NCBI RefSeq assembly: GCF_054482525.1
Contig: NZ_CM137006.1
DNA length: 64,000 nucleotides
Direction: 5' to 3' (one strand)
In this document: positions 8,770 to 8,862 of the stretch, piece after piece
Layout of the letters: each line of letters opens with the position of its first letter
How positions within the stretch are numbered: the stretch's first letter is position 1
Position numbers and translations under genes: made by a program
The notes under the pieces: model-generated
The model's input: the letters and a program-made list of their open reading frames with translations, nothing else
Databases searched by the model: none
What the model was told of the DNA's origin: nothing

Positions 8770-8862
8770 TTAACTTTTCAGACGCGGGTCCAACCATACC
8801 AACACAAGGGTGGAGAGCGAACACATCAACAAAATGCCGACGAACCAAAGTAAATACCACAT
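8770..8862 (-). CDS. appX: AppX (YccB), 30-aa single-TM small subunit associated with cytochrome bd-II (CydX paralogue)
   Basis: Hand translation of minus strand: MWYLLWFVGILLMCSLSTLVLVWLDPRLKS*, preceded by GGAG; lies between appB and appA. Below track cutoff; coordinates hand-counted. Confidence 0.75.
   Translation of the reverse strand: MWYLLWFVGILLMCSLSTLVLVWLDPRLKS

What the first reader, a model, noticed from the sequence alone, without database searches (positions are those of the whole stretch)
8770..8862. 30-codon appX small membrane protein between appB and appA, missed by the ORF track
A short ORF (MWYLLWFVGILLMCSLSTLVLVWLDPRLKS) with one hydrophobic helix and a GGAG ribosome-binding site lies immediately after appB. 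This fits the CydX-like accessory subunit of cytochrome bd-II. It is known in K-12, but worth flagging because automated ORF calling with a 60-aa threshold omits it.
Basis: partly seen in the sequence, partly recalled or inferred. Interest (0 to 1): 0.2.

Follow-up and report, generated by a model that had tools for sequence, protein, structure and literature searches.

The report
Known appX subunit of cytochrome bd-II
The 30-codon reading frame is real and is the already well-known appX (cbdX/yccB) gene, the tiny one-helix third subunit of the E. coli cytochrome bd-II oxidase, so the finding is correct but ordinary.

Summary
Its ATG lies 12 nt after the appB stop codon and follows UAAGGAG. 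It is 79 nt upstream of appA.

The peptide is 100% identical to the AppX chains of two cryo-EM structures of E. coli cytochrome bd-II (7OSE_C, 7OY2_X). It passes the curated cut-offs of Pfam PF08173 and the NCBIfam CbdX equivalog model. RefSeq annotates it as cbdX, and the surrounding 501 bases match 5418 of 5426 complete E. coli genomes.

The same ORF follows an appB homologue in all 14 loci recovered from Escherichia, Citrobacter, Salmonella, Edwardsiella and an Orbaceae symbiont. Selection on it is purifying: pN/pS is 0.06-0.24 in 12 loci, similar to appB. Two overlapping rival ORFs are interrupted by stop codons in other species.

The only "miss" comes from a 60-aa length threshold. Current annotation pipelines call the gene. 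Already known; low interest.

The parts
8770..8862 (-). appX (cbdX, yccB) coding sequence, 30 codons plus TAA. It encodes the single-transmembrane-helix third subunit of cytochrome bd-II.
   Evidence: ORF and sequence; family models above cut-off; 100% identical to 7OSE_C and 7OY2_X; RefSeq annotation cbdX; synteny and purifying selection.
8871..8877 (-). UAAGGAG: the appB stop codon (8877..8875) fused to the appX Shine-Dalgarno GGAG (8874..8871), 8 nt before the ATG.
   Evidence: A stop codon with an adjacent or overlapping SD (TAAGGAG, TGAGGAG, TAGGAGG, TAGGGAG) is kept in 13 of the 14 other loci; Schmidhempelia has GAGGAAGAG instead. The same SD is listed for appX in PMC9841429.
8875..10011 (-). 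appB, cytochrome bd-II subunit II (378 aa).
   Evidence: PF02322, E 2.2e-96; RefSeq appB.
10023..11567 (-). appC, cytochrome bd-II subunit I (514 aa, RefSeq start). The ORF listing extends it to a GTG at 11573.
   Evidence: PF01654, E 1.1e-175; RefSeq coordinates converted to the window.
8729..8760 (-). REP-like imperfect palindrome in the appX-appA spacer. It forms a stable RNA hairpin with no T-run. It belongs to the operon transcript, but its role was not tested.
   Evidence: -27.9 kcal/mol for the 85-nt spacer, z -4.2, 0 of 200 shuffles as good; no terminator or promoter consensus; motif found 3 times in the window against 0.2 expected; hairpin kept in K-12 and in the SCPM-O-B-8794 locus.
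7380..8690 (-). appA, periplasmic acid phosphatase/phytase, the last gene of the operon (436 aa in this strain).
   Evidence: PF00328, E 1e-55; RefSeq appA, WP_001366242.1.

Best explanation
Window 8770-8862 (minus strand) is appX (synonyms cbdX, yccB), the third gene of the appC-appB-appX-appA operon. It is translated from the polycistronic mRNA. Its Shine-Dalgarno sequence directly abuts the appB stop codon (UAAGGAG, 8 nt, AUG), so ribosomes finishing appB probably re-initiate or are recruited there; this coupling is inferred. The 30-residue product is one transmembrane helix buried in the membrane. In the solved bd-II structures it packs against AppC helices 1, 5 and 6, next to the four-helix bundle that holds hemes b595 and d, in the same position as its paralogue CydX in bd-I. 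Its most likely job is structural: stabilising the assembly and heme-binding fold of AppC. That role is inferred from the structures and from CydX genetics. In one preparation it also forms the main contact between two bd-II heterotrimers, but whether this happens in vivo is unknown.
For: Shown here:
- The ORF, its SD and its position after appB.
- 100% identity over all 30 residues to AppX chains 7OSE_C and 7OY2_X.
- NCBIfam NF011333 'cytochrome bd-II oxidase subunit CbdX' equivalog, 80.8 bits against a cut-off of 57; Pfam PF08173, 45.4 against 26.2.
- Flanking genes are PF01654, PF02322 and PF00328 proteins, i.e. appC, appB and appA.
- RefSeq annotates cbdX here in strain 1190 and in K-12 MG1655. 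The region is present in 5418 of 5426 complete E. coli genomes.
- The exact peptide is in public collections on at least 1000 contigs, named CbdX or AppX.
- In 14 loci from 5 genera the ORF (29-34 aa) starts 12-25 nt after an appB homologue.
- For codons 10-29, which the search pattern did not constrain, pN/pS is 0.06-0.24 in 12 loci and 0.56 (saturated) in Schmidhempelia. appB gives 0.04-0.22.
- Differences from the window fall mostly on third codon positions: 119, against 75 at position 1 and 17 at position 2.
- M1, W2, Y3, W6, G9, L11, L12 and C14 are invariant, including in CydX.

From papers:
- AppX was detected by mass spectrometry in purified bd-II and resolved as one TM helix contacting AppC TM1, 5 and 6. 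It superposes on CydX and forms the dimer contact (PMC8585947).
- The review PMC8951039 describes a mainly structural role.
Against: Nothing argues against identity or coding status. The functional role is less secure. EcoCyc curators rate cydX and appX as 'accessory subunits of uncertain function' (PMC11551758). A delta-appX background did not change the phenotype of cydX point mutants (PMC6005532). Translation in this particular strain was not observed, and translational coupling to appB is inferred from spacing only. The cross-species sample was selected by a pattern requiring MWYLLWF-x-G, so it cannot show how many app operons lack the gene.
Confidence: 0.97

Rival explanations
1. The ORF is a chance open frame in a non-coding appB-appA spacer.
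For: Short ORFs are abundant: there are 245 ATG ORFs of 25-50 aa in this window.
Against: Only this one of the 245 combines an SD with a TM-grade hydrophobic stretch. Frame, length and sequence are kept across 5 genera with pN/pS 0.06-0.24. The peptide is physically present in solved structures and was detected by mass spectrometry.
Confidence: 0.005
2. The functional product is, or includes, the overlapping 46-aa ORF at 8720-8860 (minus strand), which starts at the GUG inside the AUGUG start of appX, so that two frames are read.
For: appX begins AUGUG and the ORF listing lists the +2-frame ORF. Dual initiation at AUGUG sites has been shown for some E. coli genes (PMC9841429). The frame has no stop within the appX-overlapping 84 nt in the Escherichia loci.
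Against: In that frame non-synonymous changes exceed synonymous ones: the pN/pS ratio is 1.8-6 where defined, and 8-13 non-synonymous against 0 synonymous changes elsewhere. Read over its full 141-nt length, the frame is broken by stops in 8 of 13 loci, including E. albertii. PMC9841429 lists appX with SD spacing 15 and 'predicted ambiguity: no'.
Confidence: 0.02
3. The real gene is the 90-aa ORF on the plus strand (8727-8999), antisense to appX and the appB 3' end. This is the one ORF here that a 60-aa ORF track would list.
For: It is open for 90 codons in this window.
Against: It starts with TTG, overlaps the well-supported appB and appX genes, and in the same register is interrupted by 1-7 stop codons in all 13 other loci tested. 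RefSeq annotates nothing there.
Confidence: 0.003

Closest known systems
AppX / CbdX / YccB of E. coli K-12 (cytochrome bd-II subunit; PDB 7OSE chain C, 7OY2 chain X; RefSeq WP_000270305.1)
   Same: Identical 30-residue sequence, the same RefSeq protein accession as in K-12, and the same position between appB and appA with the same UAAGGAG.
   Different: Nothing at the protein level. The window and K-12 differ by one synonymous base in the ORF (TTG/CTG at Leu24) and by three bases in the downstream hairpin region.
CydX (YbgT), the small subunit of E. coli cytochrome bd-I (PDB 6RKO chain X)
   Same: Same Pfam family, PF08173. The N-terminal motif MWY..W..G.LL.C is shared. Both are one TM helix encoded directly after the subunit II gene, and they occupy the same position on subunit I in the structures (PMC8585947).
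   Different: Only 10 of 25 residues are identical. AppX is 30 aa against 37 aa and lacks the charged C-terminal tail. It scores below the CydX equivalog cut-off (TIGR02106, 18.9 against 31.6). The Leu positions that mediate the bd-II dimer contact are replaced in CydX.
CydS of Geobacillus thermodenitrificans cytochrome bd
   Same: A single-helix accessory subunit of about 4 kDa bound alongside subunit I, with a proposed equivalent stabilising role (PMC8951039).
   Different: It is tilted towards TM6 and shifted 4-5 A at the periplasmic side. No sequence comparison was made here.

Membership tests
Cytochrome bd-II subunit AppX/CbdX (NCBIfam NF011333, equivalog) | Full-length match to the curated model above its cut-off. 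| tested here: met
   80.8 bits against a cut-off of 57, residues 1-30 on profile positions 1-30 of 30.
Cytochrome bd-II subunit AppX/CbdX (NCBIfam NF011333, equivalog) | Encoded directly downstream of the subunit II gene (appB) of an appCB-type operon. | tested here: met
   There are 12 nt between the appB stop and the ATG. The neighbours are PF02322 and PF01654 proteins. The same arrangement holds in 14 of 14 other loci.
Cytochrome bd-II subunit AppX/CbdX (NCBIfam NF011333, equivalog) | About 30 residues forming one transmembrane helix. | tested here: met
   The best 19-residue Kyte-Doolittle mean is 2.49. The identical chain is modelled as one TM helix in 7OSE and 7OY2.
Cytochrome bd-II subunit AppX/CbdX (NCBIfam NF011333, equivalog) | Physically part of the purified AppC-AppB complex. 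| not testable with these tools
   Not measured for this strain. The identical sequence is a chain of two bd-II structures and was found by mass spectrometry in the purified enzyme (PMC8585947).
Cytochrome bd-II subunit AppX/CbdX (NCBIfam NF011333, equivalog) | Reading frame maintained by purifying selection. | tested here: met
   pN/pS is 0.06-0.24 on codons 10-29 in 12 loci, and the rival frames fail.
Pfam PF08173 YbgT_YccB (CydX/AppX superfamily) | Match above the gathering score. | tested here: met
   45.4 bits against 26.2, E 8.5e-12.
CydX proper (bd-I subunit; TIGR02106, equivalog) | Match above the curated cut-off. | tested here: not met
   18.9 bits against a cut-off of 31.6. It is the bd-II paralogue, not CydX.
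CydX proper (bd-I subunit; TIGR02106, equivalog) | Located after cydB in the cydAB operon. | tested here: not met
   The upstream genes are annotated appC and appB, next to hya and appA.

The most novel reading that the evidence does not exclude
The least ordinary reading still open is that AppX is more than a passive stabiliser. Its Leu-rich face could drive dimerisation of bd-II in vivo, and substitutions at that face in other genera could tune this: L19V in E. albertii, E. whittamii and other divergent Escherichia, and L5F in Citrobacter. A related possibility is that the REP-like hairpin just after appX sets the expression ratio of appCBX to appA by protecting the upstream mRNA. Neither was tested here.
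Probability: 0.15. Interest if true: 0.3.

Novelty: already known. Interest (0 to 1): 0.04.

Why it matters
It matters only as a quality-control point. A 60-aa ORF threshold hides a real, structurally characterised respiratory-complex subunit and instead shows a spurious 90-aa antisense ORF at the same place. The same threshold also hides the 57-aa gnsA gene nearby. The biology itself is textbook for E. coli: gene, protein, structure and family models are all established. The one genuinely open question is what the subunit contributes functionally. EcoCyc curators still rate it an accessory subunit of uncertain function, and sequence analysis of this window cannot settle that.

Tried and rejected
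I used an exact cluster look-up and a degenerate DNA pattern scan of genome contigs instead.
- That pattern fixes codons 1-9, so the first dN/dS calculation was biased. I repeated it on codons 10-29 only.
- In one search the E. albertii and E. whittamii rows were given on the wrong strand and are meaningless. Only the window, K-12 and SCPM-O-B-8794 rows were used.
- VanOrsdel et al. 2013 (PMC3754557) and Hemm et al. 2008 (PMC2614699), the primary papers on CydX/AppX genetics and YccB detection, are not held. No claim here rests on them.
- The consensus scan found no promoter or terminator in 8500-9000, so the spacer hairpin is not filed as an intrinsic terminator.
- Rival frames, the 46-aa +2 ORF and the 90-aa antisense ORF, were considered and rejected.
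- I ran no structure prediction, fold search or whole-database protein search, because identical solved structures exist and the cost was not justified.

Full report
**1. Observation**

Reading window 8650-9000 and listing ORFs down to 20 aa shows a 30-codon ATG ORF at exactly 8770..8862. Its translation is the one quoted, MWYLLWFVGILLMCSLSTLVLVWLDPRLKS. It lies on the minus strand, which the finding did not state.

On that strand the sequence reads ...TAC TAA GGAG CAGGAACA ATG TGG...:
- appB stop codon at 8877..8875
- GGAG at 8874..8871
- an 8-nt spacer
- ATG at 8862..8860
- stop TAA at 8772..8770

The neighbours are a 378-aa PF02322 protein (appB, 8875..10011), a PF01654 protein (appC) and a PF00328 histidine acid phosphatase (appA).

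The peptide is strongly hydrophobic over residues 1-24 (mean Kyte-Doolittle 2.08; best 19-residue window 2.49). Among the 245 ATG ORFs of 25-50 aa on both strands of the window, it is the only one with both an SD-like motif and a TM-grade hydrophobic stretch.

**2. Identity**

- The peptide is 100% identical over all 30 residues to the chains named 'cytochrome bd-II ubiquinol oxidase subunit AppX' in PDB 7OSE (chain C) and 7OY2 (chain X). It also aligns with CydX of bd-I (6RKO chain X) over residues 1-24.
- It scores 45.4 bits on Pfam PF08173 YbgT_YccB (gathering score 26.2).
- It scores 80.8 bits on the NCBIfam equivalog NF011333 'cytochrome bd-II oxidase subunit CbdX' (cut-off 57).
- It falls below the cut-off of the CydX equivalog TIGR02106 (18.9 against 31.6). 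It is therefore the bd-II paralogue, not CydX. BLASTP against CydX gives 10 of 25 identities.
- The exact sequence is in public collections on at least 1000 contigs under the names CbdX and AppX.

**3.

A 501-base query spanning the appB end, appX and the appA start matches 5418 of 5426 complete E. coli genomes, 5398 of them over at least 80% of the query. Every full-length row shown carries the annotation cbdX.

The window is 100% identical over this stretch to E. coli strain 1190, a canine isolate. There, and in K-12 MG1655, the gene is annotated cbdX with the same protein accession, WP_000270305.1, between appB and appA. The refutation condition is not met.

**4. Conservation beyond E. coli**

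The search for homologous proteins refuses queries under 40 aa. I therefore scanned one genome per species with a degenerate DNA pattern for MWYLLWF-x-G. This returned 14 loci:
- E. albertii, E. whittamii and three further divergent Escherichia loci (two of them labelled E. coli)
- four Citrobacter
- Salmonella enterica subsp. arizonae
- three Edwardsiella
- Candidatus Schmidhempelia bombi

In all 14 the match opens a 29-34-codon ORF (one is cut by a contig end). Each starts 12-25 nt after a tblastn-confirmed appB homologue (53-96% identity) with appC upstream. appA follows only in Escherichia.

The stop-plus-SD arrangement recurs as TAAGGAG, TGAGGAG, TAGGAGG or TAGGGAG.

Because the pattern fixes codons 1-9, I measured selection on codons 10-29 only. 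pN/pS is 0.06-0.24 in 12 loci, against 0.04-0.22 for appB in the same loci. Schmidhempelia is saturated. Differences from the window fall mainly on third codon positions: 119, against 75 at position 1 and 17 at position 2.

An alignment with CydX shows M1, W2, Y3, W6, G9, L11, L12 and C14 invariant. W23 is conserved in all AppX sequences.

This sample shows that the frame is protein-coding and syntenic. Because of how it was selected, it cannot say what fraction of app operons carry the gene.

**5. Rival frames**

Two other ORFs overlap appX.

*The 90-aa TTG ORF on the plus strand (8727..8999).* This is what a 60-aa ORF track would display here. In the same register it is interrupted by 1-7 stops in all 13 comparable loci.

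*The 46-aa ORF at 8720..8860 (minus strand).* It starts at the GUG inside the AUGUG start of appX.
- In that frame non-synonymous changes outnumber synonymous ones: the ratio is 1.8-6 where defined, and 8-13 against 0 elsewhere.
- Over its full length the frame is stop-interrupted in 8 of 13 loci.
- A paper on dual initiation at AUGUG sites lists appX (SD UAAGGAG, aligned spacing 15) with no predicted ambiguity (PMC9841429).

Both rivals are rejected.

**6. How it works**

*Shown in the literature for the identical protein (PMC8585947).* AppX co-purifies with AppC and AppB and was identified by mass spectrometry. It is a single helix buried in the membrane that contacts AppC TM1, 5 and 6, beside the bundle coordinating hemes b595 and d. 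It superposes on CydX. In amphipol preparations it forms the main contact between two heterotrimers through a Leu-rich face, with W23 and V22 touching AppC V41 and V42.

*Inferred.* AppX specifically is required for bd-II assembly or activity. Its translation is coupled to that of appB through the abutting stop and SD.

*Uncertain.* EcoCyc curators downgraded cydX and appX to 'accessory subunits of uncertain function' (PMC11551758). Deleting appX did not unmask phenotypes of cydX point mutants (PMC6005532). Whether bd-II dimerises in the membrane is open.

**7. Comparison with the known, and novelty**

This is not merely like AppX; it is AppX. All sequence-testable defining features are met, and the protein accession is the same as in K-12. 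Nothing is new.

The remark that automated calling misses it applies only to length-thresholded ORF lists. PGAP, with a dedicated equivalog HMM, annotates it.

**8. Things seen in passing**

- The 79-nt appX-appA spacer holds a REP-like palindrome (8729..8760). It folds at -27.9 kcal/mol within the 85-nt stretch (z -4.2), has no T-run, and no terminator or promoter consensus was found there. Its core motif recurs at 56111 and 57699. The hairpin is kept in K-12 and in the SCPM-O-B-8794 locus.
- This strain lacks the genes that sit between appA and cspH in K-12, which there begin etk, etp and gfcE. Here appA (436 aa, ending ...ACALHQDK) overlaps the cspH 3' end by 13 nt. The contiguous junction occurs in 1673 of 5426 complete genomes.
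- gnsA (57 aa, 6115..6288, minus strand) is another annotated gene below the 60-aa threshold.
- The orthologue alignment shows L19V and L5F substitutions at positions the cryo-EM paper describes as conserved in AppX homologues.

**9. Verdict**

The gene is already known and interest is very low. It is useful mainly as a reminder of what a 60-aa ORF threshold hides.

Noticed in passing
window 8729-8760 (minus strand), in the appX-appA spacer: A REP-like imperfect palindrome, GCCTGATGAGGCGCATTAGCGTCGCATCAGGC, forms a stable RNA hairpin: -27.9 kcal/mol for the 85-nt spacer, z -4.2. It has no T-run and no terminator consensus. The core motif GCCTGATGCGACGCT recurs at 56111-56125 and 57699-57713 (3 matches against 0.2 expected). 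A hairpin is kept at this place in K-12 and in the SCPM-O-B-8794 locus. It might stabilise the appCBX mRNA or modulate read-through into appA; this was not tested.
   Followed up: partly
window 7380-7392 (appA / cspH junction): This strain lacks the genes that lie between appA and cspH in K-12, which there begin etk, etp and gfcE. appA is 436 aa with an altered C-terminus (...ACALHQDK), and its 3' end overlaps the convergent cspH 3' end by 13 nt. The contiguous junction is present in 1673 of 5426 complete E. coli genomes, so it is a common polymorphism.
   Followed up: partly
window 8727-8999 (plus strand): A 90-aa TTG ORF runs antisense to appX and the appB 3' end. It is the only ORF of at least 60 aa that a length-thresholded track would show at this spot, and it is spurious: in the same register it carries 1-7 stops in all 13 other loci.
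   Followed up: yes
window 8720-8860 (minus strand): appX starts with AUGUG, and the inner GUG opens a 46-aa ORF in the +2 frame. The frame is not conserved: non-synonymous changes outnumber synonymous ones, and it has stops in 8 of 13 loci. PMC9841429 predicts no start-site ambiguity for appX.
   Followed up: yes
window 6115-6288 (minus strand): gnsA (57 aa, annotated as a GnsA/GnsB family protein in RefSeq) is another real annotated gene below the 60-aa ORF threshold. The small genes ymcF and ymcE next to cspG overlap one another.
   Followed up: no
window 8690 vs 8720 (appA start) and 11567 vs 11573 (appC start): the ORF listing extends appA to an upstream ATG at 8720 (446 aa) and appC to a GTG at 11573 (516 aa). 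RefSeq starts are at 8690 (436 aa, MKAILIPF...) and 11567 (514 aa). The mechanical ORF starts should not be taken as gene starts.
   Followed up: partly
L003, L004, L009, L011, L013 (Escherichia) and L007, L010, L014, L015 (Citrobacter), AppX residues 19 and 5: AppX has L19V in the five divergent Escherichia loci (E. albertii, E. whittamii, Escherichia sp. E1V33, and strains SCPM-O-B-8794 and E69, both labelled E. coli). It has L5F in four Citrobacter. The cryo-EM paper states that all Leu positions of the dimer-contact face are conserved among AppX homologues. Position 5 was limited to Leu or Phe by my search pattern.
   Followed up: no
L005 (Candidatus Schmidhempelia bombi) 2396-2500: A more divergent 34-aa AppX/CydX-like ORF, MWYLLWFVGVLLACSLAVLTGLWIDKKSDDKPSQ, follows a subunit II gene that is only 53% identical to AppB. 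It has a longer charged tail, like CydX. Whether this operon is of the bd-I or bd-II type was not determined.
   Followed up: no
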